Position numbers and translations under genes: made by a program. From Breznakia sp. PF5-3 (GTDB lineage Bacteria > Bacillota_I > Bacilli_A > Erysipelotrichales > Erysipelotrichaceae), in NCBI RefSeq assembly GCF_029504745.1, contig NZ_JAQFIQ010000021.1, forward strand, positions 8,923 through 40,922: a stretch of 32,000 bases of DNA. The letters are read 5' to 3'. Of this stretch, positions 17,560 through 32,000 are shown piece after piece. The notes beneath the pieces are model-generated. The model saw nothing but the letters and a program-made list of their open reading frames with translations, did not search any database and was not told where the DNA came from. Numbering within the stretch: the stretch's first letter is position 1; each line of letters begins with the position of its first letter.

Positions 17560-17563
17560 AAAA

Positions 17564-17595
17564 TGGTGGTCCTGATCGGAATCGAACCAACGACA
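17564..17595 (-). pseudogene. Truncated tRNA-Phe (3' acceptor strand, T-arm and CCA only)
   Basis: TGGTGGTCCTGATCGGAATCGAACCAACGACA matches the 3' 32 nt of the intact tRNA-Phe at 20720-20751 with 2 mismatches. The adjacent terminator-like hairpin is also homologous to the one at 20685-20719. Confidence 0.8.
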
Positions 17596-18708: not shown

Positions 18709-18738
18709 TTGTTTTTTGGATTAATAATACCGTATAAT
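18709..18738 (+). promoter_or_regulatory. Candidate SigA promoter of the surface-protein gene
   Basis: TTGTTT (18709-18714), an 18-nt spacer, then TATAAT (18733-18738). Confidence 0.4.
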
Positions 18739-18774
18739 TAATATGCATAATACAAAAAGAAAGGATATAATATT

Positions 18775-19788
18775 ATGAAAAAAAGAATAATGATTATGTT
18801 TTCTGCTTTTTTGGTTTTTACATTAGTGCTTACAATGAATAGTGCTACTTTGAGCGCAAGTAACCAAAATGTTTATGAATTCGCAGGGGGAAAGTTTACT
18901 CTGGAACGGTTTGATATAGTTGAAACTGATACAGAAATAATTGTGACTGAAATAGCAAAATTAGAAGTAGAAGACGGTTTGGAAATTGGAGAAAGATTCA
19001 ATTTTCTTAGTGGATATTTGCCCAAAAATGGATTATTCACTCAAAGGATGCCGAGAATTACACTAATATACAATGATATAATTGTCCTGGATTGTGACAA
19101 CACAAATACGTATGTTAATAAGCTTTATGATTATGGTTACTCTAATGGTGCAGCAATAAATGGTAATGTGGAGAGCTATGGATGGTGTTTAAATAGAGAT
19201 GGAAAATTAAAATCTGGAATATATAAAAAAACATATACTTATAGCAAAGATTATTTTAGTAGGAATCAATTTGATAATTTAGTATCATGTGTTTCAAATG
19301 GCTTTGATGTGGTAAAAACAGAAGGAATTAAATACACTTCTCCAAACGCAGGTAGCTTTACACCAGATATGACAATCAATCATGTCAATGGAGATACTTA
19401 TACAGGTGAACAACCATATATAACTAGTGTTAATTATGATAAAGATTTATTTAGTAATGTATTGATTGATGGTGAAGTGGTAGATTCATCAAACTATGAA
19501 GTTACATTGGGAAGTACAGTGGTAACTTTTAAGGATGAATATATGAAATCATTACCTTATGGGGAACATAATATAGCAATTCAATATTCAAATGGTTTAG
19601 CAGCAGAAGGAGCATTCAACATGAATTATATAGTTCCAAAGCCTGCACCAACTCCAACACCTAATAAAGCATCAGGAAAAGATGCTCCAGAAACTAATGA
19701 TACATCAAATGCAAAACTTATGATTTCGTTGTTATTAGTAGCAGGGTTGATTAGTATAAATACTATAAAAAGAAAAATAGAACAATAA
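18775..19788 (+). CDS. Secreted or cell-surface protein with a signal peptide and a C-terminal hydrophobic anchor
   Basis: N-terminus MKKRIMIMFSAFLVFTLVLTMNSATLSA. A Pro/Thr linker PKPAPTPTPN is followed by the C-terminus APETNDTSNAKLMISLLLVAGLISINTIKRKIEQ, which is shaped like a sortase signal but lacks LPxTG. Confidence 0.7.
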   Translation: MKKRIMIMFSAFLVFTLVLTMNSATLSASNQNVYEFAGGKFTLERFDIVETDTEIIVTEIAKLEVEDGLEIGERFNFLSGYLPKNGLFTQRMPRITLIYNDIIVLDCDNTNTYVNKLYDYGYSNGAAINGNVESYGWCLNRDGKLKSGIYKKTYTYSKDYFSRNQFDNLVSCVSNGFDVVKTEGIKYTSPNAGSFTPDMTINHVNGDTYTGEQPYITSVNYDKDLFSNVLIDGEVVDSSNYEVTLGSTVVTFKDEYMKSLPYGEHNIAIQYSNGLAAEGAFNMNYIVPKPAPTPTPNKASGKDAPETNDTSNAKLMISLLLVAGLISINTIKRKIEQ

Positions 19789-19790
19789 TA

Positions 19791-19817
19791 AAAGCTACTC
19801 ATTCGTAGCTTTTTTAT
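19791..19817 (+). terminator. Rho-independent terminator
   Basis: AAAAGCTAC-tcattc-GTAGCTTTT followed by a T-run. Confidence 0.75.
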
Positions 19818-20084
19818 TTACTTCCTTTTAAAAGCCCTACTGTATGATCTCCTTTAGGTTTTACTCCACTTAGTTTTCCAAAAATTCCATCAATTTGCAG
19901 ATTTTTCCATAGGCGCTACCAAATGTCACGTTTCACCGACTATTTTTACACAAATGTATAAAAAGATGATATATTATAACTATTAAATGATAGATGTAGC
20001 CATATAGGATTTGATAAAAAGAAAAGAAGGAAAAAATGAAAAAACTTAAAATTAATTCATACTCAAAAAAAGATATTCAGGAGG

Positions 20085-20297
20085 CACAGCAACTTATGTT
20101 GTAACTTTAACTAGATCTGCTATGGGAAGTATCCAGATAAAGTAGATTATACTTTTACTTATAAAACAACGGATAGCGGAACTCCATTCTCTGTAGGTGG
20201 AGACAATGACTCAAATATACTTGTTACAGTAAGCGAGGGTGAGCCATATGATATTGTAGAATTTGGTGTTCCACAAAGTAACATGATATTGGAATAG
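20085..20297 (+). pseudogene. Frameshifted remnant of a surface/pilin-like protein gene
   Basis: Two short protein-like frames are interrupted by stops: GTATYVVTLTRSAMGS... and VDYTFTYKTTDSGTPFSVGGDNDSNILVTVSEGEPYDIVEFGVPQ. No intact ORF is present. Confidence 0.35.
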
Positions 20298-20336
20298 AAT
20301 AGAAATAGTAATAGAATTTTGAAAAGAGGAATATTT

Positions 20337-20468
20337 ATGAAAAATCAGAAATTTTCAAATAAAATGAATCAATTGAATAATGATAATAAGTCTTATGCAC
20401 TTGGCAGATTACTAATTACATTAGGGATCATCATAGTAATTTTTATCATATGGTTGTTTACTAATTAG
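20337..20468 (+). CDS. Possible 43-aa single-TM peptide
   Basis: ATG preceded by AAGAGGA (7-nt spacing). The product MKNQKFSNKMNQLNNDNKSYALGRLLITLGIIIVIFIIWLFTN has a polar head and one TM helix. It is below the ORF-track size cutoff. Confidence 0.35.
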   Translation: MKNQKFSNKMNQLNNDNKSYALGRLLITLGIIIVIFIIWLFTN

Positions 20469-20719
20469 AGAATATTTTAGGATTTCTTTTCTATATATTA
20501 TGTATACTATTGAGGTGATAATATATACGATATATTGATAGACTTGAGCGATGGCAATATATCATATGAAGAGGCGTTTGAAATCATTATTGATGCGATT
20601 TGTTTTGACGACATTTATGTGATAAAACATGATAAAAATTTAGAAATTAACAATTCTATTAGATAAATAAAAAAAGTGTTTAAACCTTTAAATTAAGGAT
20701 TAAGCACTATTTTTTCAAA

Positions 20720-20795
20720 TGGTGGTCCCGGTCGGAATCGAACCAACGACACAAGGATTTTCAGTCCTTTGCTCTACCGACTGAGCTACGGGACC
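20720..20795 (-). tRNA. tRNA-Phe (GAA)
   Basis: The reverse complement GGTCCCGTAGCTCAGTCGGTAGAGCAAAGGACTGAAAATCCTT...GGTTCGATTCCGACCGGGACCACCA folds as a cloverleaf. The anticodon loop is CTGAAAA and CCA is encoded. Confidence 0.9.
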
Positions 20796-20798
20796 ATT

Positions 20799-20875
<77 letters not shown>

Positions 20876-20901
20876 ATAAATGGTATACTAAATTTTAAGA
20901 A

Positions 20902-20992
20902 TGGCGGAGGAACTGGGATTCGAACCCAGGCGCCAGTTTCCCGACCTACCGGTTTTCAAGACCGGACCCTTCAGCCACTTGGGTATTCCTCC
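20902..20992 (-). tRNA. tRNA-Ser (UGA)
   Basis: 91 nt with a long variable arm. The anticodon loop is CTTGAAA and CCA is encoded. Confidence 0.9.
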
Positions 20993-21012
20993 AAATAGAT
21001 TCTTTTTTTAAA

Positions 21013-21089
21013 TGGTGGACCCTACAGGACTCGAACCTGTGACCCACCGGTTATGAGCCGGATGCTCTGACCAACTGAGCTAAGGGTCC
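21013..21089 (-). tRNA. tRNA with CAU anticodon, most likely tRNA-Ile2 (lysidine-modified)
   Basis: The reverse complement is GGACCCTTAGCTCAGTTGGTCAGAGCATCCGGCTCATAACCGG.... From memory, the GGACC..TTAGCTCAGTTGGT.AGAGCA body resembles Bacillus tRNA-Ile(CAU) rather than elongator Met. Confidence 0.7.
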
Positions 21090-21109
21090 AGCTTAAGCAT
21101 TAAATAAAA

Positions 21110-21186
21110 TGGTGGCTGAAGTGAGACTCGAACTCACGACCTTCCGGGTATGAACCGGATGCTCTAGCCAGCTAAGCTACCCAGCC
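21110..21186 (-). tRNA. Elongator tRNA-Met (CAU)
   Basis: The reverse complement is GGCTGGGTAGCTTAGCTGGCTAGAGCATCCGGTTCATACCCGG.... The anticodon loop is TTCATAC and CCA is encoded. Confidence 0.8.
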
Positions 21187-21196
21187 AAAATTTTAA

Positions 21197-21273
21197 TGGT
21201 CGGGAAGACAGGATTCGAACCTGCGACCCCCTGGTCCCAAACCAGGTGCACTACCAAGCTGTGCTACTTCCCG
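21197..21273 (-). tRNA. tRNA-Pro (UGG)
   Basis: The reverse complement is CGGGAAGTAGCACAGCTTGGTAGTGCACCTGGTTTGGGACCAGG.... The anticodon is TGG. Confidence 0.9.
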
Positions 21274-21292
21274 AATACTCTAAATAAATAAA

Positions 21293-21369
<77 letters not shown>

Positions 21370-21400
21370 ATTAATAACATGCTCTTTACAGCGCTTTATC

Positions 21401-21429
21401 ATAATATCAAACTTCCATGTGCTTTGCAA
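21401..21429 (-). promoter_or_regulatory. SigA promoter of the seven-tRNA operon
   Basis: On the minus strand: TTGCAA (21429-21424), a 17-nt spacer, then TATTAT (21406-21401). It ends about 31 nt upstream of the tRNA-Arg 5' end. Confidence 0.65.
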
Positions 21430-21518
21430 GTCTTTTTTCGATAAAAACAAGGAAAATTATACTTCTTTCATTGATATTTTTGCTTTCTTCAATTACACTT
21501 AAAAGCAGAGGATGATAT

Positions 21519-22412
21519 ATGAAACATGTATTTATAATTAACCCAATTGCAGGGAAGCGTAATCAAAGCGTTGCATTGAGTGGTGAAATTAAAAAAGTTT
21601 TTAAAGATTGTGAATATTATATTGAATTAACTAAGCAAGAACATCATGCTACAGAGATTGCAAAGCAATACGCCTCTGAAGGTGAGGATGTTCGTTTTTA
21701 TGCTTGTGGCGGAGATGGAACACTTCACGAAGTGTTAAATGGAATGTACGAGTATCCAAATGCAAGTTTAGCTATTATTCCAATCGGGACAGGAAATGAT
21801 TTTATAAAATATTTTGATGCATATACACATGAAGATTTTTTAGATTTAAAAGCTATTAAAGATGGGTATTTGATGAAAAGTGACCTTTTGAAATGTAATA
21901 AGCGTGTATGTATGAATATTGCTTCAGTAGGGTTTGATGCTCAAGTTGTACAAAAGGTTGCAAAATTCAAGCGAGTTCCTTTCGTTAATGGGAAAATGGC
22001 ATATCTTTTAGCTGTATTCAATAGTTTTTTTTCTTCTATGAAATTTAAGCACAGTTTGCAAATTGATGATGAATATATACCAGAACAAAACTATATATTT
22101 GTTGTGGCTGCGAATGGACGCTATTATGGTGGTGGATTCAATCCCACCCCAGATGCAACGATTGATGATGGATGTATGGATGTATTAACCATTACTTCAT
22201 TGCCCCGTTATCGAGTTATGGGGTTAATTAGTACTTATAAGGCTGGCGAACATATGAAATATGATTTTGCTTATCATCGACAATGTAAGAAAATAAAAAT
22301 TATAGGAGAGAAAGCCGTTGCATTAAATATGGATGGGGAAACGACATTGGAAAAAGATCCTGAAATTTATGTAATACCAAAAGCTTTGAATCTTATATTA
22401 CCAAAAAAATAA
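21519..22412 (+). CDS. Diacylglycerol kinase catalytic-domain lipid kinase (YegS/DagK/BmrU family)
   Basis: Motifs ACGGDGTLHEVLNG and IIPIGTGNDF. 297-aa ORF with an AGAGGA SD. Confidence 0.85.
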   Translation: MKHVFIINPIAGKRNQSVALSGEIKKVFKDCEYYIELTKQEHHATEIAKQYASEGEDVRFYACGGDGTLHEVLNGMYEYPNASLAIIPIGTGNDFIKYFDAYTHEDFLDLKAIKDGYLMKSDLLKCNKRVCMNIASVGFDAQVVQKVAKFKRVPFVNGKMAYLLAVFNSFFSSMKFKHSLQIDDEYIPEQNYIFVVAANGRYYGGGFNPTPDATIDDGCMDVLTITSLPRYRVMGLISTYKAGEHMKYDFAYHRQCKKIKIIGEKAVALNMDGETTLEKDPEIYVIPKALNLILPKK

Positions 22413-22436
22413 TATCCGCAAGGATATTATTTTCGT
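22405..22436. terminator. Bidirectional terminator between the lipid-kinase gene and proA
   Basis: AATAATATCC-gcaa-GGATATTATT flanked by an A-run and a T-run. It overlaps both stop codons. Confidence 0.7.
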
Positions 22437-23671
22437 ATTGTTCCATCTCCATATACAAGATATTTATAGGATGTTAATGCGGTTAGTCCCATAGGACCAC
22501 GGGCATGAATTTTTTGTGTAGAGATTCCAATTTCTGCTCCAAAACCAAACTCTTCACCATCTGAGAAACGACTAGAAGCATTTTCGTACACAACTGCACT
22601 ATCTACTTGATTCAAGAATTTTTCTGCACGCTTCTTATCTTCCGTAATAATAACATCGGAATGATGTGTTCCATAATGATTAATATGTGAGATAGCGTCG
22701 TCTAATGAAGAAACAACTTTCACAGATATTTCCATAGCAAGATACTCTTTTCCATAATCTTCTTCATCTGCTAGTAAAATACTATCGTCATATGAAGTAG
22801 TTAAAGCATCTCCATGAATTAACACCTGATTTGCTTTTAAGTTCTCAATTAACAGTGGTAAAAAGTTAGCTTGTATATCGTTGTGAACTAAAACACTTTC
22901 ACAGGTATTACAAACACTGATTCGTTGACACTTTGCATTGATAATAATATCAATTGCTTTTTTGAAGTCAGCATCTTTGTCAACATATACATGACAATTT
23001 CCAGTTCCTGTTTCAATAATAGGAACACTTGCATTTTCAACTGTTGCTTTGATAAGGTTTGCTCCACCTCGAGGAATTAGCAAATTTAAATATTCTATTA
23101 ATTTCATAAAAGCAACAGCACTTTCTCTTGATGTATCTTCTAGCAGTTCAATAAAATGTTCATTGTAGCCTGCTTTTATGATACCTTCCTTCATAGCTTG
23201 GACTAAAGCTTTATTAGAATGTATGGTATCTTTACTACCGCGTAAAAAACAAACATTTCCAGCTTTTAAACAAAGTGTCGCAGCATCTACACTAACATTA
23301 GGTCGTGCTTCGTAAATCATTCCTATAACACCAATTGGGACACTTTTTTTGATAATCTTTAAATCATTTCTTTGCCATTCGTCCAATATAACATTGCAAG
23401 GGTCTGGTAAGGAAATAACTTGCTTAACACCAGCGATGATAGCATCCATACGTGATGGAGTCAGGGTTAAACGATCAATAAATGAAATTGGTTTCTTATT
23501 TAGTTCTGCTTGTTCAATATCTTTTTTATTAGCTTCTAAAATTGTACTTGTATGTATTTTTAAGCTTTGAGCAATTGCATCTAAAAGATTGTTCTTACTT
23601 TGTTCATCTAAATTCATTAATTCATAAGAAGCATCTTTACAAGCTTTTCCTTTACATATTAATTCACTCAT
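22427..23671 (-). CDS. proA: Glutamate-5-semialdehyde dehydrogenase (gamma-glutamyl phosphate reductase)
   Basis: 414-aa aldehyde-dehydrogenase-fold ORF with a ProA-typical sequence (GVIGMIYEARPNV, catalytic Cys context NTCESVLVH). The ATG lies 1 nt after the proB stop and is preceded by AAGGAGG. Confidence 0.9.
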   Translation of the reverse strand: MSELICKGKACKDASYELMNLDEQSKNNLLDAIAQSLKIHTSTILEANKKDIEQAELNKKPISFIDRLTLTPSRMDAIIAGVKQVISLPDPCNVILDEWQRNDLKIIKKSVPIGVIGMIYEARPNVSVDAATLCLKAGNVCFLRGSKDTIHSNKALVQAMKEGIIKAGYNEHFIELLEDTSRESAVAFMKLIEYLNLLIPRGGANLIKATVENASVPIIETGTGNCHVYVDKDADFKKAIDIIINAKCQRISVCNTCESVLVHNDIQANFLPLLIENLKANQVLIHGDALTTSYDDSILLADEEDYGKEYLAMEISVKVVSSLDDAISHINHYGTHHSDVIITEDKKRAEKFLNQVDSAVVYENASSRFSDGEEFGFGAEIGISTQKIHARGPMGLTALTSYKYLVYGDGTIRK

Positions 23672-24812: not shown

Positions 24813-24837
24813 GAACTTATTCACTGTAATTTACGAC
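24813..24837 (+). promoter_or_regulatory. ECF-type promoter (GAAC-N17-CGAC) upstream of the bactofilin-sigma operon
   Basis: GAAC at 24813-24816 and CGAC at 24834-24837, exactly 17 nt apart. The downstream CGACTATAAATTGAGAGG is near-identical to the second copy at 27541. Confidence 0.6.
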
Positions 24838-24994
24838 TATAAATTGAGAGGGTGTGTATCCAAGGAAGATAGTGGCGTATGTATTATGGGATAAGTTCGT
24901 TTTTTTAGTATATTAAAGTATTTATAATAACAAAGTTATCAGGTTATTATGAAAATAGCATATTTCTTATATTGGGAGCAAGAGGAGAAAAGAC

Positions 24995-26050
24995 ATGGAT
25001 ATATTGACAGGGGCTAACATATTTTCGTTTAATGTAATAATTGCAATTTTATCATTTGTAATCGCAGTATTAATAATTACGTATATCATACGTAAGATTC
25101 TTTTATATCAATTGAAAAAGGAAATCGAATTAGCAGTAGATGTGTATGAAACTCTTTATCAAGAAGTAAATAGTAGTGAATGGGAATATTTGTCAAACTT
25201 AGCGAAACATGATAAGCAAATAGACATGTTGCTTGAACAAAGTAATATGCATGATAATTATAATAGGTTATCTGAAGATTTAAGAGCTTGTAAGTTGTTA
25301 CTTAATGATTTTAATGCACAAAACCTAGGAGATATGGATCGAAGAACAGTAAACTCTACGTTAACATTTATCAATGGATTGATGGATAATATGGAAGATA
25401 CGATTTCAGATTTTTATCATGCTTGTATCCAGCAAACACAGTCTTTAAAATTAGATTCTAAAGTAGATGTGATTCAAAAACATGAGCAAGTGGAACCAAA
25501 ACGTCAACCAGTACAACAAAGCGTAAAATCTTTAAATAAAGAAATAGTGAAACCAAAAACTAGCAATGAAGAACCAAAGCCTAAAGTTGATCAACGACCA
25601 AATATAATAATGCAGGATTTAAAAGGAAATGAAGGTGTTTCAATAATTTCATCACAAACAAAGATAGATGGAAATATTATTGCGAAAGAAGAAGTAATGA
25701 TACTAGGAAAGGTAAATGGATCTGTAAAATCAGAAAAATATATAGAAATTGATGCAGATGCGCAAATCAAGGGAAAACTTATTGCTCCTATGGTGCATAT
25801 AAAAAGTGGTAGTTTACTTTGTGATATTTTAGCTTCAAAACAAATATTTATATCGGAAAAGGGATATATAAAAGGAAATATTGAAACGCAAGACATTGTA
25901 GTTGCTGGAACTATTGAAGGGAATATGAAGACAAGTAGTTTAAATGTAAATGAAAGTGCAAAGATTTTTGGTGATATTTATACCAATGTAATTGAAATAG
26001 AAAAAGGTGCACAAATCAGTGGGGAATTTACGATGACTCAAGAAGCATAA
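24995..26050 (+). CDS. Membrane-anchored bactofilin-domain (DUF583/CcmA-like) protein
   Basis: An N-terminal TM helix (IFSFNVIIAILSFVIAVLIITYII) is followed by RK. Next come a helical region, a Lys/Pro-rich linker, and a C-terminal ~130 aa of bactofilin-type beta-helix repeats (IDGNIIAKEEVMILGKVNGSVKS ... IKGKLIAP ... IKGNIETQDIVVAGTIEGNM ... IFGDIYTNVIEIEKGAQISGEF). GAGGAG SD. Confidence 0.8.
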   Translation: MDILTGANIFSFNVIIAILSFVIAVLIITYIIRKILLYQLKKEIELAVDVYETLYQEVNSSEWEYLSNLAKHDKQIDMLLEQSNMHDNYNRLSEDLRACKLLLNDFNAQNLGDMDRRTVNSTLTFINGLMDNMEDTISDFYHACIQQTQSLKLDSKVDVIQKHEQVEPKRQPVQQSVKSLNKEIVKPKTSNEEPKPKVDQRPNIIMQDLKGNEGVSIISSQTKIDGNIIAKEEVMILGKVNGSVKSEKYIEIDADAQIKGKLIAPMVHIKSGSLLCDILASKQIFISEKGYIKGNIETQDIVVAGTIEGNMKTSSLNVNESAKIFGDIYTNVIEIEKGAQISGEFTMTQEA

Positions 26051-26147
26051 TGCAAAGAATAGAATAAAGCGAATAAGATATAAGGATAGTTACATATGTA
26101 TATAGAAGATGTCAGTAGAATATTTTATAAATAATAAGGGGGACAAT

Positions 26148-27515
26148 ATGGAAACTAAAAGAATAAGTCATGAAGTCATTCAAGCATTCAAAGATGGAAG
26201 TGAAGAAGCGTTTGCGAAAATTTATGATCACTATTTTAATCGAGTGTTGTTTTTTGCTTATAATCATTTGAGTGATACGGATTTAGCACAAGATGTGGTG
26301 CAAAATACTTTTCTCTCTGTATATCGAGGTATTAGCAAATTGCAACACCTTGAAGCTTTTCATGCTTGGATTATGCGAATTGCATATTGTGAGTGTCAGA
26401 ATATATATAGAAAGAATAAAATCAAAACCGTTGATTTGCCAGAGTATATGGACATTGATGCTCTAGAGGATAATAAGAGTGATACAATTGATGAACAGAT
26501 GGAGGATAAGGTTCTTCAAGATATTGTTTCTAAAGAAATAAAAATGATGAATAATAAGATAAAAGATGTTGCCATTCTTAAATATTTAGAGGGATTAAGT
26601 GAGAAGGAGATATCAGGAATTTTAAGAATTCCTAAAGGAACTGTTAAAAGTAGAACATATAAAGCTAAGGTTATTCTTCAAGATAGTTTAAAGAAAAATG
26701 GAATAACTCCAGGTACATATAAAACATATGGTTTTTCAATTCCTACTATTTTTGTTTCTGCTTGTTACTACATGCAAACGCAAATACCTACTGTACAGCC
26801 AGATTACACAACGATTGTGAACACTGCAAAAGGAATTGGTGGTGGAATAGGATTAGCAACTGGAATTAGTGCAGTTAATGGTTCAACAGCTAAAATTGGC
26901 GGATCTATGGCAAAACGATTAATTACAGGAGGAGTTGTTGCCACAATTACAATTTCTGGAGGTCTTTTATTGAATAGAGCCCCAACTGTTGCAGTCGGAG
27001 TGAATCCAGTTCATCTAGATAAAAAAGCTCCTGCTGTTGCACCAGAGAAGTGTCAAATACAAGATGTTATCTATAGTGAAGAATTTACAAATCAACTTGT
27101 ACATGTAGAAGTGAAAGTAACCAATGATAACTACGATGAGATATTAATTAATGGTGTACAAACTCAAGAGATTCATGAAAATGGGGATTATGTAATCCAA
27201 ATTATGTTTGAAGGAAACGTTGTAGATGAAAGAGTTATTTCGATAAACAATATTGATAGAACACCAACGGAATATCTTGGCTATTCTGCTGATGGAAACG
27301 TATATACAGTTTATTTAAATGATACCCAATCGAAAATAAATCCAGCCATGATTAAATATTATAAAAATGGACAATTGAATACGAACTTTACTTTTAATCA
27401 AGAAACGCAAACCATTCATTTTAATTATGAAGATTATACGGAAAATATTTTTGAAATACATGATAACGCAGGAAACGTAGTGGATGTTACAGTTGTTTCT
27501 AAATATTTGAAATAA
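26148..27515 (+). CDS. ECF-type sigma-70 family factor fused to hydrophobic/TM segments and a C-terminal ~190-aa probable extracytoplasmic Ig-like domain
   Basis: Region 2 (DLAQDVVQNTFLSVYRGI ... HAWIMRIAY) and region 4 HTH (LSEKEISGILRIPKGTVKSRTYKAKVIL) lie in the first ~195 aa. Hydrophobic and Gly-rich segments follow (FSIPTIFVSACYYM, GIGGGIGLATGISAV, LITGGVVATITISGGLLL), then a beta-rich tail. ATG 26148 is preceded by AAGGGGGA; the track start at 26109 is less likely. Confidence 0.8.
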   Translation: METKRISHEVIQAFKDGSEEAFAKIYDHYFNRVLFFAYNHLSDTDLAQDVVQNTFLSVYRGISKLQHLEAFHAWIMRIAYCECQNIYRKNKIKTVDLPEYMDIDALEDNKSDTIDEQMEDKVLQDIVSKEIKMMNNKIKDVAILKYLEGLSEKEISGILRIPKGTVKSRTYKAKVILQDSLKKNGITPGTYKTYGFSIPTIFVSACYYMQTQIPTVQPDYTTIVNTAKGIGGGIGLATGISAVNGSTAKIGGSMAKRLITGGVVATITISGGLLLNRAPTVAVGVNPVHLDKKAPAVAPEKCQIQDVIYSEEFTNQLVHVEVKVTNDNYDEILINGVQTQEIHENGDYVIQIMFEGNVVDERVISINNIDRTPTEYLGYSADGNVYTVYLNDTQSKINPAMIKYYKNGQLNTNFTFNQETQTIHFNYEDYTENIFEIHDNAGNVVDVTVVSKYLK

Positions 27516-27519
27516 TTTC

Positions 27520-27544
27520 GAACCTTTTAAAATGAAGTAGCGAC
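27520..27544 (+). promoter_or_regulatory. Second ECF-type promoter (GAAC-N17-CGAC) upstream of the giant surface-protein gene
   Basis: GAAC at 27520-27523 and CGAC at 27541-27544, 17 nt apart, followed by CGACTTTAATACTGAGATGG. It starts 5 nt after the sigma gene stop and lies 57 nt upstream of ATG 27601. Confidence 0.6.
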
Positions 27545-27600
27545 TTTAATACTGAGATGGATTAAAAATTCCATTGAGTATTGTAAGGATGGAGGAAAAA

Positions 27601-30600
27601 ATGGTCAAAAGAGAAAAGAAAAAAGGAAACTTAACATCTTATTTCTACAAACTTTTTGTTGTGTTCTTGGCAGCATTTATGATGCTTACAAGTTTACCAA
27701 CAGAAATATTTGCGAGTGCTAATGAGACATCTTCGCAAACAGTTGAAAAAACAGATGCTAGTGTTTCTAATTCAAATGAAAGCAATTTGAATGAAACAAC
27801 GAATCTTCATGATGAAGATTCTAATGGTAATTTATGGCTTAGCTTTATGCGAAGTCCGCTTAAACCTAGAGGAAATGGAGATGCTCCCGATTATGGGCAA
27901 GTATCTGCAGTTCGTTTTACACAAGCCGATCAAGGATTGTTGAGTGGACTTGCATTAGATACCAATGGAAAAGTATGGACATGGGGATATAATGAACATG
28001 GTATCCAAGGGTGTGGCTATACTGCTACTGGTATGTATAATGGTGGTATGAAACGTATCCCATACTTTACAGAAAACGATATTAATATTGTTTCTATTGA
28101 AAGTGGATATTATACTGCATATGCAATTGATGATAAAGGTCAAGTATATGTATGGGGACGTGGAATTGAAGGTCAGATGGGAGATGGTTCAAACCGTAGT
28201 GTTAACCAAACTCCAAAACCAATCGCAGCATTATCAGGTGTTAAAATTAGAAAAATAGTAACTGGTATTGAAGCGGCATCTCATACGTACGCAATGGCTG
28301 AAGATGGTCGTATTTTTGCATGGGGATATGCAGATAACAATAGAATTCCAAATAGTGGTGTTTATGTTACTACACCAAAAGAAATGACAAGTTTAAATGG
28401 GTTAAATATTGTTGATATATCATTAGGTGATGCACACTGTATGTTCCTTAGCAAAGATGGAAAAGTGTACACACAAGGATATGGTTATCAAGGTCGACTT
28501 GGACATGGAAACACAACAAATGTGAATTATCCTAAAGAAGTTGAATGGTTTGCAAATAACAATAAAAAAGTTGTGCAAATTTCAGCTTCAACAAATTCAA
28601 GTTTAGCCCTTACTGAAGATGGTAAAATTTACCAATGGGGTCATATAGCAACAAGTGTTGGTGGATTTACAACAATGTTAACACCTACAGAAGTAGGTAT
28701 AGATTTAACAAGTAATCCATATGGATATACACCAGAGTGGCAAAAAATTATCTGTGGGCGTTATACAAGCTATGTAATTGATACACATGGTCGTGTTTGG
28801 AGTTGGGGATCAAATGTTTTCTATTCTTTTTCAACCGATGGACCGATGGCACCAGCAAATGTTGGAGCAGGAAATCCAGATCCAACTAGATATGGGAAAT
28901 TACATGAAGTTCGTTTAAAAGCGACAATGCAACCTCTTACCATGGGTGATGGAGATACTCAAGAATATATTCAAGCAGTAAAGGGACCAGTTTTTTCAAA
29001 TTGGCCTACAAGCGGTGCTTATGGTACATACATGAATGAAACGATAAATACATATCGTTGGTGGGGGAATTTCTCTGATATAGCAAATGGAATGCATCCT
29101 ACAATTTATGATAAAAAATATTGTAAAACCGTTGGGGAGTTTTCAAATAATAATCCAACAACTTTAGCTGCGTTAGCAACAGCGCATTCAAAAGTGTATC
29201 TAGTGGATGAGAAGGACAGAAGACTAGTATATGTAGTTAGAAAAGATGGAGCTAGTACAATTTCGGGAAACTATTATGTAGCTGAAGATAGTTATACTGG
29301 GACTTGGTTGGTAGACAATCGTTCAACATATGATCTTCCATCAGGAGTAACAGAAGAAACAAGTGTTCCAGCAATTAAAGAAAAAGAAAAAGGTTGGATT
29401 GGTCTTGCAGTCGACTTAGAAACTCATAATTGGACTGGACATAATATGAAACAAACTCCTTATATGATAGATATTAGTACATATCAATCTTCAAGTTTAT
29501 ATGTTGATGCTTCAGGTAACTTGTACAAAACAACGTATGATGGCGCCGGAGCTATTGCTTGGGGTTGGGATAATGAACTTTATGATTTACATACAGGAAG
29601 TGTTAGACCAGGAGAAGGATTATATAATAAGTATAATCATGAGTTAGTATTTATGAGAGGTGCACCAATGGTAACGCCTGTAGATGTTACCATTCAAAAG
29701 AGTACATCAAAAATTTACCAAACAGAGGGTAATACAAAAAGTGATAAAGTAACTGTAAAAGCAGATATTCCAGCAGCATATGTAGATGAAGATATGAATA
29801 TTAAATTTACATCGGATTTACGAGATGTAAAATATGTATTTGTTCCATATGATAAATCAAATCCAGATTTTAATATTGCTGATGATGAATTGACAATTGA
29901 TCAATTTAATGCAATGTATAATAATTCCGCATATACGAAGAAAGCAGATTTATTAGACGACACGATCAGTGGTGGTGATGATGGTAAAGAATGGAAAGAT
30001 GAAATAGAAATAACTGAGAATGGTAGAATTTATGTGTTAACAGTAGATAATGCTTATGGTAAAGTTACAAATACTTTAAAAGCATATACTGCAGATAACT
30101 TCTATACACCAGCAGTTATTGAACATGTTGGAAATGGATATGTAGATGGAAAAATCTATGAAGAAATTTATGCTCCAACAAGTGAAAATGTTACTAAGAC
30201 AAAAGAGGGAACAGATACTTCGGATGTATATGGAGTGCCTTTAGATGCTAAAGGAAATGTAATTGAAAACCCTACTTTTGGATATGATAAAGTGAAAGTC
30301 GAAAAATATGATGTTCTTCCAAATGGTGAAGATAAATATTGGTTATTTAGTACACCACAAGATGGCTCATTATCATTGACATTGGATGATAAAAAATATG
30401 TTGATGAAGATTTTACACATGAGTTTAAATACGAAAGAAATCCATCAGGATGGATAACAATTAGTTATGAAGGAAAAGATATAGATTCAGGTCTAGCTTT
30501 ACCTGCATTTAGTATGGATCCAAATCCTGAGATTGTAAAAATTGATAAAGAATTAACTAGAACTCCTCCAGAAATTTCAGATTATGAGATATTAGGATAC

Positions 30601-32000
30601 AATGTAAATACAGATAAGACAATCTATAATTTAGACAGTTCTGGCGACCTTGTGTATACGCCTACTGAAGATACAGTAATTACATTCTTATATGGAACAT
30701 GGAGCGAAAATAGTGAAAAAACAGTTGTAGATAAAAATGGAGATGGATATGCATCTCCTGGAGAAGAATTAACGTATACTCTAACTTATGAAAATGAAGG
30801 TAGTGGATCAGCAAAAAATGTTCTTATCCAAGATGAATTAAAAACCGTATTACCATATGTAGAGGATCCAAAAGCAGGATCTGTTACAGTTAATAATAAT
30901 GGTGCTATTACAACACACACAGTGCAAGATTTAATTGATGGAATCCCTATTGATAAAATTGCTGGGAAAACAAAAGTTACTGTTGTATTCAAGGTAAAAG
31001 TAAAAGCAGACTTAGATGTAGATACAGTAAAAGAAATTGTGAATAAATCAACAGTTGGTGAAAGCATTATTCTAACAGGAAAAGCAGAACTACAATCAGC
31101 TAAGAAAGTAGTGGATGCAAGTGGAGATGGAGTAGCATCACCAGGAGAAAAACTGACATATACAATTATCTCGAAAAACAATGGACCAGCAGATGCAAGC
31201 GATTTATTGGTAAAAGATGAAATGACTGGAGTGGTAGGACACATTAACGAAACACCATCAGCAGTAAACATCAACGTGACAATAGATGGAGCACCAGTAG
31301 GAAATTATACATTACAAGACTTGATTGATGGAATCACAATTGACAAGTTAGCGAAAGATAAGACATTGAGTGTAAGTTTCGCAGTAACAGTAAAAGATGA
31401 TTTAGATGTAAGTAAAGTAAACAAGATAGCGAACACAGCAACAGTTGGAGATACAAAACCAACGATTGAAATTCCAACGGGAAAAGTTGAACTTTCTACA
31501 AGCAAAACAGTAAGTGATGCAAGTGGCGATAATATTGCAGCTCCTGGAGAAGAATTGACATATGTGATTACCGCTAAAAACTCAGGTGCAGCTACGTCAA
31601 GCGAATTAACACTAAAAGATGAACTAACAAATGTGTTAGGAAATGTAGACGAGAGTGCGGCAAGCATCGTAGTAACAGTGAAGAGTGACAAGGATGCAAC
31701 TAAGAATGGAACAGTAAGTGGAAGTGAGTTAGTAACAGGATTGAAATACAAGTTACAAGCAAATGAAACACTGACATTGACATTCAAAGTAAATGTAAAA
31801 GCAGACTTAGATACAACGAAAGTTAAGAAGATAGCGAATAAAGCTACCATTGGAGATCAAAGTCCAACTGCAGAAATTCCAACCGGAATAAGTGATCTTA
31901 CATCAGCAGTGAAGAGTGTAAGTGACGCAAATGGGGATGGATATGCATCACCAGGCGAAGAATTGACATACACAATAACAGCTACAAATGAAGGAACAGT
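27601..32000 (+). CDS. Giant secreted protein (5' partial, >1466 aa): signal peptide, RCC1-like beta-propeller, unassigned middle region, tandem DUF11/TIGR01451-type repeats
   Basis: Hand translation of frame 1 from ATG 27601 (GGAGG at 27590-27594) to 32000 shows no stop codon. The signal peptide is KKKGNLTSYFYKLFVVFLAAFMMLTSLPTEIFASA. RCC1-type blades: GKVWTWGYNEHG, GQVYVWGRGIEGQMGDG, GRIFAWGYADNN, GKVYTQGYGYQGRLGHG, GKIYQWGH, GRVWSWGSN. C-terminal repeats carry GDGYASPGEELTYT. The ORF is not in the supplied track because it has no stop inside the window. Confidence 0.9.
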   Translation, partial: MVKREKKKGNLTSYFYKLFVVFLAAFMMLTSLPTEIFASANETSSQTVEKTDASVSNSNESNLNETTNLHDEDSNGNLWLSFMRSPLKPRGNGDAPDYGQVSAVRFTQADQGLLSGLALDTNGKVWTWGYNEHGIQGCGYTATGMYNGGMKRIPYFTENDINIVSIESGYYTAYAIDDKGQVYVWGRGIEGQMGDGSNRSVNQTPKPIAALSGVKIRKIVTGIEAASHTYAMAEDGRIFAWGYADNNRIPNSGVYVTTPKEMTSLNGLNIVDISLGDAHCMFLSKDGKVYTQGYGYQGRLGHGNTTNVNYPKEVEWFANNNKKVVQISASTNSSLALTEDGKIYQWGHIATSVGGFTTMLTPTEVGIDLTSNPYGYTPEWQKIICGRYTSYVIDTHGRVWSWGSNVFYSFSTDGPMAPANVGAGNPDPTRYGKLHEVRLKATMQPLTMGDGDTQEYIQAVKGPVFSNWPTSGAYGTYMNETINTYRWWGNFSDIANGMHPTIYDKKYCKTVGEFSNNNPTTLAALATAHSKVYLVDEKDRRLVYVVRKDGASTISGNYYVAEDSYTGTWLVDNRSTYDLPSGVTEETSVPAIKEKEKGWIGLAVDLETHNWTGHNMKQTPYMIDISTYQSSSLYVDASGNLYKTTYDGAGAIAWGWDNELYDLHTGSVRPGEGLYNKYNHELVFMRGAPMVTPVDVTIQKSTSKIYQTEGNTKSDKVTVKADIPAAYVDEDMNIKFTSDLRDVKYVFVPYDKSNPDFNIADDELTIDQFNAMYNNSAYTKKADLLDDTISGGDDGKEWKDEIEITENGRIYVLTVDNAYGKVTNTLKAYTADNFYTPAVIEHVGNGYVDGKIYEEIYAPTSENVTKTKEGTDTSDVYGVPLDAKGNVIENPTFGYDKVKVEKYDVLPNGEDKYWLFSTPQDGSLSLTLDDKKYVDEDFTHEFKYERNPSGWITISYEGKDIDSGLALPAFSMDPNPEIVKIDKELTRTPPEISDYEILGYNVNTDKTIYNLDSSGDLVYTPTEDTVITFLYGTWSENSEKTVVDKNGDGYASPGEELTYTLTYENEGSGSAKNVLIQDELKTVLPYVEDPKAGSVTVNNNGAITTHTVQDLIDGIPIDKIAGKTKVTVVFKVKVKADLDVDTVKEIVNKSTVGESIILTGKAELQSAKKVVDASGDGVASPGEKLTYTIISKNNGPADASDLLVKDEMTGVVGHINETPSAVNINVTIDGAPVGNYTLQDLIDGITIDKLAKDKTLSVSFAVTVKDDLDVSKVNKIANTATVGDTKPTIEIPTGKVELSTSKTVSDASGDNIAAPGEELTYVITAKNSGAATSSELTLKDELTNVLGNVDESAASIVVTVKSDKDATKNGTVSGSELVTGLKYKLQANETLTLTFKVNVKADLDTTKVKKIANKATIGDQSPTAEIPTGISDLTSAVKSVSDANGDGYASPGEELTYTITATNEGT
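30715..32000 (+). repeat. Tandem ~128-136-codon coding repeats (DUF11 / 'conserved repeat domain' modules) within the giant gene
   Basis: Units start at about 30715, 31099, 31501 and 31906. Each has D-x-(N/S)-G-D-G-x-A-S-P-G-E-x-L-T-Y-T-I ... (K/Q)D-E-(L/M) ... V-K-A/D-D-L-D ... N-x-A-T-V/I-G-D. The fourth unit is cut by the window end. Confidence 0.85.

What the first reader, a model, noticed from the sequence alone, without database searches (positions are those of the whole stretch)
27601..32000. A signal-peptide / RCC1-propeller / DUF11-repeat protein gene of more than 1466 codons is missing from the supplied ORF track
I translated frame 1 from ATG 27601 to position 32000 and found no stop codon, so the gene continues beyond the window. 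That is why no stop-delimited ORF was listed. The track shows only antisense shadow ORFs (27955-28143, 30786-31274, 31305-31850). Architecture: signal peptide; at least six RCC1-like blades (27.95-28.85 kb) with the G-x-V/I-(W/Y/F)-x-W-G signature; about 600 residues I cannot assign (28.9-30.7 kb); then at least four tandem DUF11-type modules. RCC1 propellers fused to DUF11 stalk repeats on a secreted protein, apparently under a dedicated ECF sigma, suggests an inducible giant adhesin or ligand-binding surface fibre. The function is unknown.
Basis: seen in the sequence. Interest (0 to 1): 0.7.

Follow-up and report, generated by a model that had tools for sequence, protein, structure and literature searches.

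The report
Giant RCC1-headed surface fibre gene
The window ends inside a real gene for a giant cell-surface fibre of an insect-gut bacterium (Breznakia): a propeller-shaped binding head on a long stalk of repeated domains, apparently switched on by its own neighbouring sigma factor. It is a sound annotation of a known kind of protein, not a new kind of system.

Summary
Frame 1 from ATG 27601 stays open to 32000 (1466 codons, 0 stops; other frames have 45-165). The ORF lister skips it only because it runs off the window. GenBank already holds it, from a strain 100% identical over the searched part, as a partial 'putative repeat protein (TIGR01451 family)' of Breznakia sp.

Architecture:
- Sec signal peptide.
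- Seven-bladed RCC1-like propeller; the seventh blade follows a ~180-aa inserted domain.
- Three beta-sandwich domains with no Pfam family and no close solved fold.
- Tandem DUF11 modules, now called CLIPPER (isopeptide-stabilised adhesin stalk domains).

The full-length B. pachnodae ortholog has 4661 aa, 27 stalk modules and a sortase-type C-terminal signal. Relatives of 4515 and 4917 aa end in LPKTG and LPITG.

An ECF-type promoter motif, GAACY-N16-CGACTWTA, occurs exactly twice in the window: upstream of the bactofilin/sigma operon and upstream of this gene. B. pachnodae has it at the same two places.

Best reading: an ECF-controlled, wall-anchored fibrillar adhesin. The ligand is unknown and the C-terminus is unseen. 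The head module is rare (64 clusters among 1.84 billion representatives). Verdict: new member of a known kind, moderate interest.

The parts
24813..24838 (+). ECF-type promoter motif P1 (GAACT-N16-CGACT), 157 nt upstream of the bactofilin gene; presumed autoregulatory promoter of the bactofilin/sigma operon
   Evidence: One of only two matches in the window, 0.02 expected. The equivalent site is in B. pachnodae L002 at 5601-5626. Sequence read.
24995..26050 (+). Membrane-anchored bactofilin-domain protein (351 aa): N-terminal TM helix with the bactofilin domain at the C-terminus
   Evidence: PF04519 at 86.7 bits. TM-like segment at aa 3-40. Conserved next to the sigma and giant genes in L002, L006-L009 and L017.
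26148..27515 (+). ECF sigma factor fused to a C-terminal hydrophobic segment and a ~170-aa extracytoplasmic-looking domain (455 aa from M14; the ORF can also start at 26109)
   Evidence: Sigma70_r2 and r4_2. TIGR02937 at 76 bits against a 42.9 cut-off. TM-like segment at aa 258-276. 47% identical over the full length to the B. pachnodae gene and 27% to the L017 gene.
27520..27545 (+). ECF-type promoter motif P2 (GAACC-N16-CGACT), 55 nt upstream of the giant gene's ATG
   Evidence: Second of the two window matches. Equivalent site in L002 at 9881-9906. No terminator-like site lies between the sigma gene and this gene.
27591..27595 (+). Ribosome-binding site GGAGG, 5 nt before the ATG
   Evidence: Sequence read.
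27601..27720 (+). Sec-type signal peptide (aa 1-40; predicted cleavage after A-S-A)
   Evidence: Basic n-region, hydrophobic core aa 14-33 and ASA motif. By inspection only.
27721..27897 (+). Low-complexity Ser/Asn/Glu-rich linker (aa 41-99)
   Evidence: Translation. Low pLDDT at the start of model A. Poorly conserved in the family alignment.
27898..28929 (+). RCC1-like propeller, blades 1-6 plus the first strand of blade 7 (aa ~100-443)
   Evidence: Pfam RCC1, RCC1_2 and WD40_RLD. Model A pLDDT mostly above 90 here. Strand map. Foldseek hits to UVR8, HERC2 and RCC1.
28930..29463 (+). Inserted domain inside the propeller (aa ~444-621). Carries the invariant GDGDT (449-453) and HPTIYDKKY (499-507) motifs and a confident beta-subdomain (aa 533-587) that B. 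pachnodae lacks
   Evidence: Model A. Family conservation. No Pfam match. Absence in L002/P0126 seen.
29464..29670 (+). Seventh propeller blade (aa 622-644) and a conserved closing segment with invariant WGWD and FMRGAP (aa 645-690)
   Evidence: Strands at 622-628, 631-636 and 641-644. Invariant columns. The aa 645-700 stretch has low pLDDT.
29683..30696 (+). Three beta-sandwich domains (aa ~695-831, 834-946, 951-1032) linking head and stalk; no Pfam family
   Evidence: Model B pLDDT 88.3. Only weak generic Ig/pilin/SHIRT/factor XIII fold hits. No Pfam even at E<10. No PDB sequence hit.
30712..32000 (+). DUF11/CLIPPER stalk modules 1-3 (aa 1038-1165, 1166-1299, 1300-1435) and the start of module 4 (aa 1436-); the gene continues beyond the window
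   Evidence: PF01345, PF25549 and TIGR01451. Module alignment with invariant K3, D41 and N111. Orthologs carry 27-31 modules.

Best explanation
This is the 5' 4.4 kb of a gene for a giant, secreted, probably sortase-anchored fibrillar surface protein (adhesin) of a Breznakia species (Erysipelotrichaceae, an insect-gut genus).

Proposed mechanism, with each step marked:
- The pre-protein is exported by Sec using its N-terminal signal peptide. (Signal peptide shown by inspection; export inferred.)
- The C-terminus, outside the window, is covalently attached to the wall by a sortase. (Inferred from the ortholog.)
- A stalk of tens of ~130-aa CLIPPER/DUF11 Ig-like modules projects the N-terminal head far from the cell. 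(Modules shown; projection inferred.) Each module is probably locked by a Lys-Asn isopeptide bond. (Inferred.)
- The head is a seven-bladed RCC1-like propeller carrying an inserted domain, followed by three beta-sandwich domains. (Fold predicted with high confidence.) It is the ligand-binding tip. (Binding role inferred; ligand unknown.)
- Transcription is driven by the adjacent ECF sigma factor. That sigma is tethered to the membrane by its own C-terminal extension and is co-transcribed with a membrane-anchored bactofilin-domain protein. The same ECF-type promoter motif sits upstream of the sigma operon and upstream of the adhesin gene. (Motif shown; transcription inferred.)
- Release of the sigma domain, by analogy with sigma/anti-sigma fusions probably through regulated proteolysis on an envelope or extracellular cue, would induce both its own operon and the fibre. 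(Inferred.)
For: Real gene: open frame of 1466 codons with P about 1e-55, an RBS, and sense-type codon-position GC.

Domains: RCC1/RLD and DUF11/TIGR01451 HMMs are far above their cut-offs. Model A has pLDDT 80.8 and pTM 0.82, with seven blade strand-sets. Foldseek to RCC1-family propellers reaches E 4e-29 and target TM 0.75. Model B has pLDDT 88.3 and is all-beta.

Stalk: CLIPPER is experimentally a stalk domain of fibrillar adhesins with a K/D/N isopeptide triad (bioRxiv 10.1101/2025.04.25.650565). K3, D41 and N111 are invariant in the 10 aligned modules of A1 and at least 90% conserved across 27 modules, 3 from the window and 24 from B. pachnodae.

Size and anchoring in relatives:
- P0126, the full-length B. 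pachnodae ortholog (52% identical head): 4661 aa, 27 modules, ending in ...APATGD, a hydrophobic helix, then SKFRFRRFHQRKK.
- P0130: 4515 aa, 27 modules, LPKTG.
- P0134: 4917 aa, 31 modules, LPITG.
- About 20 family members end in LPxTG-type signals.
- The nearest stalk homolog, from Erysipelothrix tonsillarum, ends in LPQTG.

More repeats lie downstream: independent short-read assemblies break inside the module region at window ~31010, ~31168 and ~31635, although these modules are not repetitive within the window.

Regulation:
- The sigma passes the ECF model.
- The motif GAACY-N16-CGACT occurs exactly twice in 32 kb against 0.02 expected, both times in promoter positions, and at the orthologous two sites in B. 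pachnodae.
- The bactofilin + sigma-fusion + giant RCC1-CLIPPER trio recurs in a third lineage, L017.
- A sigma with a similar extension sits beside RCC1 giants in a Clostridiales MAG.
- Sigma/anti-sigma fusions activated by proteolysis are documented (PMC8999054).
Against: - The C-terminus of this gene is not in the window, and no assembly I could reach holds it. Anchoring is inferred from orthologs.
- The B. pachnodae signal is non-canonical (APATG) and scores just under the TIGR01167 cut-off, 14.0 against 15.9 bits.
- No RCC1-like domain has, to my knowledge, been shown experimentally to be an adhesive tip. The held literature has no paper containing both 'fibrillar adhesin' and 'RCC1'.
- The isopeptide triad could not be aligned to 9IFR.
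- The promoter pattern was defined from the very sites it then counts, so the 0.02 expectation is somewhat circular.
- In L017 only the -35 half and the spacing recur, and no second site was found.
- The closest non-Breznakia relative, P0124 at 58% identity, has a two-component system and an LRR protein upstream instead of a sigma.
- The signal peptide and TM calls are heuristic.
Confidence: 0.75

Rival explanations
1. The head is a surface-displayed enzyme (for example a glycan- or wall-modifying hydrolase or lyase), not a passive binding tip. The stalk would serve only to present a catalytic module.
For: The head has strictly invariant polar and aromatic residues across relatives of 31-52% identity: GDGDT, HPTIYDxKY, WGWD, E/R in YExxFMRGAP, and PLDxxGxxIxxPxFGYD. 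These could mark an active site. The inserted domain and the three beta-sandwich domains have no assigned function.
Against: Neither model matches an enzyme fold. Model A hits only RCC1-family binding and regulatory propellers, including the secreted protein binder BLIP-II. Model B gives only weak hits to Ig-like domains of pilins, SHIRT, LdtMt2 and factor XIII. No catalytic Pfam or NCBIfam family was found. Invariant residues fit a conserved ligand pocket or a structural core equally well.
Confidence: 0.1
2. The protein is not covalently wall-anchored in this species. It is instead released, or held non-covalently, as a biofilm-matrix or sheath fibre or as a cell-cell aggregation factor.
For: The C-terminus is unseen. 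About a third of family members lack an LPxTG-type signal. They end in a different conserved domain (YWVTIYLxPT...NYxWD...NxFGxI) and sit beside camelysin/TasA-like genes. The B. pachnodae motif APATG is atypical and sub-threshold.
Against: The unanchored subgroup has no CLIPPER stalk. Every complete stalk-bearing relative inspected ends in a motif + TM + basic-tail signal: P0126, P0130, P0134, P0127 and P0125, the last with a hydrophobic helix and basic tail but no matched motif. The true ortholog shares the window's module types and its operon context.
Confidence: 0.1
3. The ECF link is coincidental. The giant gene is expressed from a housekeeping promoter or by read-through from the sigma gene, and the shared motif has no function.
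For: The pattern was derived from the sites it counts. No terminator separates the sigma gene from the giant gene, so read-through is possible. The exact motif is absent from L017. P0124's locus has no sigma.
Against: There are two exact matches against 0.02 expected, both on the coding strand at promoter distance. The orthologous positions keep them in a species whose proteins are only ~50% identical. The motif has the canonical ECF architecture, a GAAC -35 and a CG-containing -10. Synteny of sigma fusion, bactofilin and giant gene holds in three lineages. Read-through from an autoregulated ECF operon would still make the gene ECF-dependent.
Confidence: 0.1
4. There is no functional gene here. 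It is a pseudogene remnant or an assembly chimera, or the antisense ORFs are the real products.
For: The gene is truncated by the window. Short-read assemblies of related strains all break inside it.
Against: Zero stops in 1466 codons against 45-165 in the other frames. Domain HMMs reach E 5e-57. Homologs are conserved at 31-58% identity, with intact full-length orthologs. Four independent assemblies carry this locus, two matching the window exactly where checked. The antisense ORFs have no family and a mirrored codon-position composition.
Confidence: 0.02

Closest known systems
Fibrillar adhesins with CLIPPER (DUF11, PF01345 / TIGR01451) stalks, e.g. Acinetobacter silvestris B9T28_05395 (PDB 9IFR; bioRxiv 10.1101/2025.04.25.650565)
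   Same: Signal peptide, a distal non-repeat head, and tandem ~120-135-aa DUF11 modules forming the stalk. Very large size in orthologs (27-31 modules). Invariant Lys, Asp and Asn at about the same relative positions as the K715/D748/N806 triad. A cell-surface sorting signal in the orthologs.
   Different: The head is an RCC1-like propeller with an inserted domain plus three unclassified beta-sandwich domains. The survey paper's text mentions neither RCC1 nor propellers. The host is a Gram-positive-type Erysipelotrichaceae anchored by sortase, not a Gram-negative. The isopeptide bond is not demonstrated here.
RCC1-like domain (RLD) propellers: RCC1, UVR8, HERC2 RLDs, RPGR, and the secreted bacterial BLIP-II
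   Same: Seven-bladed propeller with the G-x-V/I-aromatic-x-W-G repeat signature. Pfam and Foldseek matches are strong. RLDs, BLIP-II included, work as protein- or ligand-binding platforms.
   Different: This one is extracellular, sits at the tip of a giant wall protein, and has a ~180-aa domain inserted before the last blade. There is no reason to expect Ran-GEF, UV-B sensing or beta-lactamase-inhibitor activity. None of those functions was tested.
Gram-positive sortase-anchored stalk adhesins (MSCRAMM/Cna, SasG/Aap, pilus tip adhesins such as SpaC)
   Same: Same working logic: N-terminal binding region, rod of repeated Ig-like domains often stabilised by intramolecular covalent bonds, and a C-terminal LPxTG-type anchor. 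Model B's weak fold hits are to such proteins: SHIRT, SpaC, PitA and EbpB.
   Different: There is no sequence-level membership in those families. The stalk is CLIPPER rather than Cna_B, G5-E or SHIRT. The anchor is not observed for this gene.
Sigma/anti-sigma fusion ECF factors (IutY of Pseudomonas putida, ECF243; Streptomyces SCO4117, ECF52; PMC8999054)
   Same: The regulator next door is an ECF sigma with a long C-terminal extension that contains a hydrophobic segment and an extracytoplasmic-looking domain. Its operon and its putative target share an ECF-type promoter.
   Different: It comes from Erysipelotrichia, which is neither Proteobacteria nor Actinobacteria. No zinc-finger or FecR-like anti-sigma domain was detected. 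It is partnered with a membrane-anchored bactofilin-domain protein, a pairing I found no account of in the three papers holding 'bactofilin', 'anti-sigma' and 'ECF', only one of which I opened. Activation by proteolysis is purely by analogy.

Membership tests
RCC1-like domain (PF00415 / PF13540 / PF25390) | Repeat and domain HMMs above the curated gathering scores | tested here: met
   PF25390 at 194.3 bits against 150; PF00415 at 114.6 against 21.7; PF13540 at 108.7 against 22.
RCC1-like domain (PF00415 / PF13540 / PF25390) | Seven-bladed beta-propeller fold | tested here: met
   Model A (pLDDT 80.8, pTM 0.82) shows seven B-C-D strand sets, the last after an insertion. Foldseek to UVR8, HERC2, RPGR and RCC1 gives E 4e-29 to 1e-19 and target TM up to 0.75. 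This is a prediction, not a solved structure.
DUF11 / CLIPPER (PF01345, TIGR01451) | Domain and repeat HMMs above the curated cut-offs, in tandem copies | tested here: met
   PF01345 at 70.9 bits against 24.6 in 3 stretches. TIGR01451 at 80 against 24 in 4 stretches. Modules start at aa 1038, 1166, 1300 and 1436.
DUF11 / CLIPPER (PF01345, TIGR01451) | Intramolecular isopeptide triad: Lys in the first strand, catalytic Asp, Asn in the last strand. The family paper notes that not all DUF11 domains have it. | tested here: inconclusive
   K3, D41 and N111 are invariant in the 10 aligned modules of A1 and at least 90% conserved across 27 modules. Relative positions are similar to K715/D748/N806 of 9IFR. 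No residue-level alignment to 9IFR could be obtained, and no module structure was predicted.
Fibrillar adhesin (signal peptide + adhesive head + repeated stalk + anchor) | N-terminal secretion signal | tested here: met
   Basic n-region, hydrophobic core at aa 14-33 and ASA at aa 38-40. Heuristic; SignalP was not available.
Fibrillar adhesin (signal peptide + adhesive head + repeated stalk + anchor) | Tandem stalk domains making up most of the length | tested here: met
   Three complete modules and part of a fourth lie in the window. Full-length relatives have 27, 27 and 31 modules. B. pachnodae has a 1203-nt super-repeat at 80-92% DNA identity.
Fibrillar adhesin (signal peptide + adhesive head + repeated stalk + anchor) | A head domain that binds a ligand | not testable with these tools
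   The fold is a binding-type propeller, but no ligand is known and no RCC1 head has been shown to be adhesive.
Sortase substrate (LPxTG-type cell-wall sorting signal, TIGR01167 / PF00746) | C-terminal motif + hydrophobic helix + basic tail | not testable with these tools
   The C-terminus lies beyond position 32000 and no reachable assembly holds it. In the ortholog P0126 the signal is APATGD + TM + SKFRFRRFHQRKK, with TIGR01167 at 14.0 bits against a 15.9 cut-off. P0130 has LPKTG and P0134 has LPITG.
ECF sigma regulon | The regulator is a group-4 (ECF) sigma factor | tested here: met
   TIGR02937 at 76.1 bits against 42.9. Sigma70_r2 and r4_2 are above their cut-offs.
ECF sigma regulon | A shared ECF-type promoter (-35 GAAC, ~16-17 nt spacer, CG-containing -10) upstream of both the sigma operon and the target gene | tested here: met
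   GAACY-N16-CGACT at 24813-24838 and 27520-27545 only, with 0.02 expected. The same two positions carry it in L002. It is not conserved in exact form in L017.
ECF sigma regulon | Sigma-dependent transcription of the target | not testable with these tools
   This needs RNA-seq, 5'-RACE or in-vitro transcription.
Sigma/anti-sigma fusion ECFs (IutY / ECF52-like) | C-terminal extension with transmembrane segment(s) and an extracytoplasmic domain acting as a built-in anti-sigma | tested here: inconclusive
   A ~265-aa extension follows region 4, with one weak TM-like segment (aa 258-276, hydropathy 1.63) and a conserved ~170-aa C-terminal domain. No anti-sigma, zinc-finger or other Pfam family was found in it. 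It has no PDB relative.

The most novel reading that the evidence does not exclude
In insect-gut Erysipelotrichaceae, three components form one conserved, previously undescribed sensing-and-display module:
- a membrane-tethered ECF sigma (a sigma/anti-sigma fusion);
- a membrane-anchored bactofilin-domain protein;
- a giant RCC1-headed CLIPPER fibre.

The sigma's extracytoplasmic domain would sense an envelope or host cue, or the state of the fibre itself. The bactofilin would act as a non-canonical anti-sigma or as a polymer scaffold that positions secretion. The RCC1 propeller with its inserted domain, a head module found in only 64 clusters among 1.84 billion representatives, would be a new class of adhesive or catalytic tip domain with a specific host or microbial ligand.
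Probability: 0.2. Interest if true: 0.6.

Novelty: new member of a known kind. Interest (0 to 1): 0.35.

Why it matters
For annotation, the point is practical. Genes that run off a contig or window edge are invisible to stop-delimited ORF callers. Giant repeat-rich adhesins are exactly the genes that break short-read assemblies, so they are systematically under-reported.

For biology, Breznakia and its relatives are insect-gut symbionts, and a fibre of several thousand residues is a strong candidate for attachment to the gut lining or to other microbes. The head combines a familiar RCC1 propeller with a rare, uncharacterised ~600-aa module, which would make a tractable target for ligand discovery.

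The clear two-site ECF promoter signature gives a directly testable regulon of minimal size: one sigma fusion, one bactofilin-domain partner and one giant target. That could help show how membrane-tethered sigma fusions are activated in Firmicutes. None of this changes what kind of thing the protein is, namely a fibrillar adhesin.

Tried and rejected
1. Recovering the 3' end.
- An exact-protein look-up of the 468-aa sigma ORF found nothing, because gene callers start it at M14.
- Look-ups of P0001 and the bactofilin protein returned only 6-7 kb contigs that all break in the module region.
- A homolog search with the window's modules returned no Breznakia C-terminal fragment.
- The C-terminus was therefore inferred from P0126, found by the exhaustive search.

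2. Aligning the modules to the solved CLIPPER structure 9IFR. phmmer, and then a 10-module profile, gave no PDB hit even at E<=10.

3. My by-eye guess that aa 955-1035 is MucBP-like, and that the P0126 C-terminal segment is a Listeria-Bacteroides (Flg_new) repeat. Pfam gave no support even at permissive thresholds, so I dropped both.

4. Tandem Repeats Finder found nothing in the window or in L002. A shift-identity script found that period instead.

5. Looking for the promoter motif outside Breznakia. The exact form is absent from L017. A relaxed search there was no better than chance, 9 matches against 6.25 expected.

6. Testing whether the sigma's extracytoplasmic domain resembles part of the giant protein, as a self-sensing idea. 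No similarity was found, and it has no PDB relative.

7. A literature link between bactofilin and anti-sigma function. I found no support in the one paper I opened.

8. Spatial clustering of the invariant head residues. Model coordinates are not exposed, so this could not be tested.

9. The third fold search and the third homolog search were left unused, because no remaining question justified their cost.

Full report
**1. Observation**

Translating window 27601-32000 in frame 1 gives 1466 codons with no stop. The other five frames of the same stretch contain 45-165 stops. At the region's composition (window GC 32%), the probability of an uninterrupted frame of this length is about 1e-55. A GGAGG ribosome-binding site lies 5 nt upstream of the ATG.

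That tool, by definition, leaves out ORFs that run off the source. The antisense ORFs have no Pfam family, and their GC by codon position is the mirror of the sense frame. The sense frame (0.47/0.40/0.18) looks like the other genes of the window. The 'missing gene' is an artefact of stop-delimited ORF listing.

**2. Source and prior annotation**

The first 1035 residues are 100% identical to P0001, a 1345-aa GenBank entry named 'putative repeat protein (TIGR01451 family), partial [Breznakia sp. PFB2-8]'. It lies on a 6.9-kb contig that ends inside the repeats. Near its end P0001 reads NNGSAT where the window reads NSGAAT. Three further short-read contigs of related samples break at window positions ~31010 and ~31168. 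Breznakia is a genus of Erysipelotrichaceae.

The rest of the window is ordinary chromosome: teichoic-acid genes, ribonucleotide reductase, MutY, a sugar-sensing two-component cluster and seven tRNAs.

**3. Anatomy of the protein**

- *Signal peptide (aa 1-40).* It has a basic n-region, a hydrophobic core and an A-S-A motif, by inspection. A Ser/Asn/Glu-rich linker follows.
- *Propeller.* Pfam finds RCC1, RCC1_2 and the RCC1-like domain far above threshold.
  - An AlphaFold2 model of aa 85-700, built on 15 family sequences, has pLDDT 80.8 and pTM 0.82. It shows six contiguous blades (WG strands at aa 125, 182, 238, 289, 343 and 399).
  - A ~180-aa excursion follows (aa ~444-621), containing a long helix and a very confident beta-subdomain. 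Three more strands at aa 622-644 then form the seventh blade.
  - Foldseek against the PDB returns UVR8, HERC2 RLDs, RPGR, RCC1 and the secreted bacterial BLIP-II, with E as low as 4e-29 and target TM up to 0.75.
- *Region aa 686-1040.* It models confidently (pLDDT 88.3) as about three beta-sandwich domains.
  - Its PDB matches are only weak and generic: Ig-like domains of LdtMt2, SHIRT, pilins and factor XIII, with best E 6e-4 and TM at most 0.45.
  - No Pfam family matches any piece of aa 441-1040 even at E<10. There is no PDB sequence relative.
- *Stalk (from aa 1038).* These are DUF11/TIGR01451 modules of 128-136 aa.

**4. What DUF11 now means**

A 2025 survey renamed DUF11 'CLIPPER'. It solved a representative structure (PDB 9IFR) and showed a Lys-Asn isopeptide bond, catalysed by an Asp, that confers thermal and protease stability. 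[quoted passage not shown]

In the 10 aligned modules of A1, one Lys in the first strand (K3), one Asp (D41, 'kDEl') and one Asn near the end (N111, 'I.NqAT') are invariant. Across 27 modules, 3 from the window and 24 from B. pachnodae, they are at least 90% conserved. Their relative positions are similar to K715/D748/N806. I could not align them residue by residue to 9IFR. The isopeptide bond is therefore a well-motivated inference, not a result.

**5. Relatives, full length and anchoring**

An exhaustive phmmer search of aa 441-1040 against 1.84 billion cluster representatives found only 64 clusters. The region typically starts ~350-950 residues into the protein, consistent with a preceding propeller. 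The head module is rare.

P0126 is the full-length ortholog from B. pachnodae DSM 16784, whose locus is L002.
- It has 4661 aa and 27 CLIPPER-like modules.
- Its stalk contains a 1203-nt three-module super-repeat at 80-92% DNA identity.
- It ends in ...SVAPATGD, then LFTSYALYIGGALILFFGW, then SKFRFRRFHQRKK. That is a tripartite sortase-type signal with a non-canonical motif. TIGR01167 scores 14.0 bits against a cut-off of 15.9.

Other stalk-bearing relatives are P0130 (4515 aa, 27 modules, LPKTG) and P0134 (4917 aa, 31 modules, LPITG). About 20 family members carry LPxTG-type signals. The closest homolog of the window's modules, from Erysipelothrix tonsillarum, ends in LPQTG.

A second subgroup of ~1150-1300 aa has no CLIPPER stalk and no anchor. 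It ends in a conserved 'YWVTIYLxPT...NYxWD...NxFGxI' domain and lies downstream of four small genes, one of them weakly camelysin/TasA-like.

Independent assemblies break inside window modules that are not repetitive within the window. That implies near-identical copies downstream of 32000, so this gene too is very probably several thousand codons long.

**6. Regulation**

The gene immediately upstream (26148-27515) is an ECF sigma, with TIGR02937 at 76 bits against a 42.9 cut-off. It carries a ~265-aa C-terminal extension with a hydrophobic segment and a conserved ~170-aa domain. A 351-aa protein with an N-terminal TM helix and a C-terminal bactofilin domain precedes it.

Reading the intergenic DNA, I found GAACC-N16-CGACTTTA 55 nt upstream of the giant gene and GAACT-N16-CGACTATA 157 nt upstream of the bactofilin gene. 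The pattern GAACY-N16-CGACT occurs exactly twice in the 32-kb window, against 0.02 expected. It also occurs exactly at the two orthologous places in B. pachnodae, although the proteins there are only ~50% identical. This is the canonical ECF promoter architecture. It fits an autoregulated sigma operon with the fibre gene as its target.

Two caveats apply. The pattern was defined from the sites it counts. In a third lineage (L017, genome CP013213.1) only the TGAACC -35 and the 16-nt spacing recur upstream of the giant gene, with no second site.

Synteny nevertheless extends to that lineage, which has bactofilin genes, a 443-aa sigma fusion (27% identical across the full length, E 6e-32) and the 4515-aa giant. 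A Clostridiales MAG has a sigma with a similar extension beside two RCC1 giants. The closest non-Breznakia relative, P0124 at 58% identity, has a two-component system and an LRR protein upstream instead.

Sigma/anti-sigma fusions released by regulated proteolysis are known: IutY/ECF243 is characterised, and the mechanism is proposed for ECF48/52/53 (PMC8999054). Applying that mechanism here is analogy only.

**7. Best explanation and rivals**

The best-supported reading (confidence ~0.75) is an ECF-induced, Sec-exported, sortase-anchored fibrillar adhesin. Its CLIPPER stalk projects an RCC1-propeller head.

- *Shown:* the gene, the domains, the predicted folds, the size and anchor in orthologs, and the promoter motif.
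- *Inferred:* anchoring in this strain, isopeptide bonds, sigma dependence, proteolytic activation, and adhesion with its ligand.

The rivals are:
- a surface-displayed enzyme head (0.1), motivated by the strictly invariant GDGDT, HPTIYDxKY, WGWD and FMRGAP motifs but with no enzyme fold;
- a released or non-covalently held matrix fibre (0.1);
- a coincidental promoter motif or simple read-through (0.1);
- a pseudogene or antisense products (0.02).

**8. Comparison with known systems, and novelty**

The protein works like the CLIPPER-stalk fibrillar adhesins and like Gram-positive sortase-anchored stalk adhesins. It passes the sequence and fold tests for the RCC1-like and DUF11/CLIPPER families. 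Membership of the sortase-substrate class could not be tested for this gene.

Three features are unusual:
- an RCC1 propeller as the tip, which no paper in the held library couples with 'fibrillar adhesin' and which the CLIPPER survey text does not mention;
- the rare ~600-aa insertion and beta-sandwich module;
- the partnership with a sigma fusion and a membrane-anchored bactofilin-domain protein.

These make it a noteworthy member of its kind but not a new kind of system, and the gene already exists in GenBank as a partial entry. I rate it 'new member of a known kind', interest 0.35. The most novel reading not excluded is a conserved sensing-and-display module with a new adhesive or catalytic head class. 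I give that a probability of about 0.2 and an interest of 0.6 if true.

Noticed in passing
window 24995-27515 (+): This is an operon of a membrane-anchored bactofilin-domain protein (351 aa) and an ECF sigma fused to a C-terminal hydrophobic segment plus a ~170-aa domain with no Pfam or PDB relative. The bactofilin + sigma-fusion pairing recurs in B. pachnodae (L002) and in genome CP013213.1 (L017). In the three papers holding 'bactofilin', 'anti-sigma' and 'ECF', only one of which I opened, I found no link between bactofilins and ECF or anti-sigma function.
   Followed up: partly
L002 7943-8515 (+), B. pachnodae: A type I signal peptidase (Peptidase_S26, 190 aa) is inserted between the bactofilin gene and the sigma-fusion gene of the orthologous cluster. 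The window has no such gene. It might process the giant pre-protein, or it might act as a site-1 protease on the sigma fusion. From memory, signal peptidases cleave the anti-sigma RsiV in B. subtilis.
   Followed up: no
L001 6514-9668; L010 4762-7983; L012 4749-7983: The short, stalk-less relatives of the head (~1150-1300 aa) end in a conserved 'YWVTIYLxPT...NYxWD...NxFGxI' domain. Each is preceded by four small genes (~190-325 aa), and one of them gives a weak camelysin/TasA-like (Peptidase_M73) hit. This is a different conserved gene neighbourhood for the same head.
   Followed up: partly
window 18775-19788 (+): This is a 337-aa secreted protein with a weak CBM_X2 hit. Its C-terminus, '...KDAPETNDTSNAK + LMISLLLVAGLISINTI + KRKIEQ', resembles the B. 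pachnodae giant's '...SVAPATGD + TM + basic tail'. That hints at a non-canonical APxT[GN]D sorting motif in Breznakia.
   Followed up: no
L002 ~12660-22670 (B. pachnodae giant gene): The stalk is built from a 1203-nt super-repeat of three module types (133 + 132 + 136 aa) at 80-92% DNA identity, which indicates recent amplification. Tandem Repeats Finder misses it because the period exceeds 500 nt.
   Followed up: yes
L013 1-6774 (Clostridiales MAG WRMS01000010.1): A 392-aa sigma with a C-terminal extension lies between two RCC1 giants. One of them is a >3056-aa RCC1-MucBP-SLH protein. The sigma-fusion/RCC1-surface-protein pairing may therefore extend beyond Erysipelotrichaceae.
   Followed up: partly
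window 20723-21369 (-): A cluster of seven tRNA genes sits in the ORF-free gap between 19.8 and 21.5 kb. The small ORFs listed there are translations of tRNA DNA.
   Followed up: no
window ~31560-31580 against P0001 aa ~1322-1328: The GenBank partial protein P0001 reads ...AKNNGSATSS... where the window reads ...AKNSGAATSS.... It then stops 20 residues later at its contig end. This is either strain variation or repeat copies collapsed together at the end of a short-read contig.
   Followed up: no
window 22-2790 (+) and 9961-14258 (-): The first block encodes a cytidylyltransferase-family protein (TagD-like by context) and two CDP-glycerol glycerophosphotransferase (TagF-like) genes, consistent with a teichoic-acid-containing Gram-positive wall. 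The second block is a sugar-binding-protein / HisKA_3 kinase / LuxR-type response regulator / SBP cluster.
   Followed up: no
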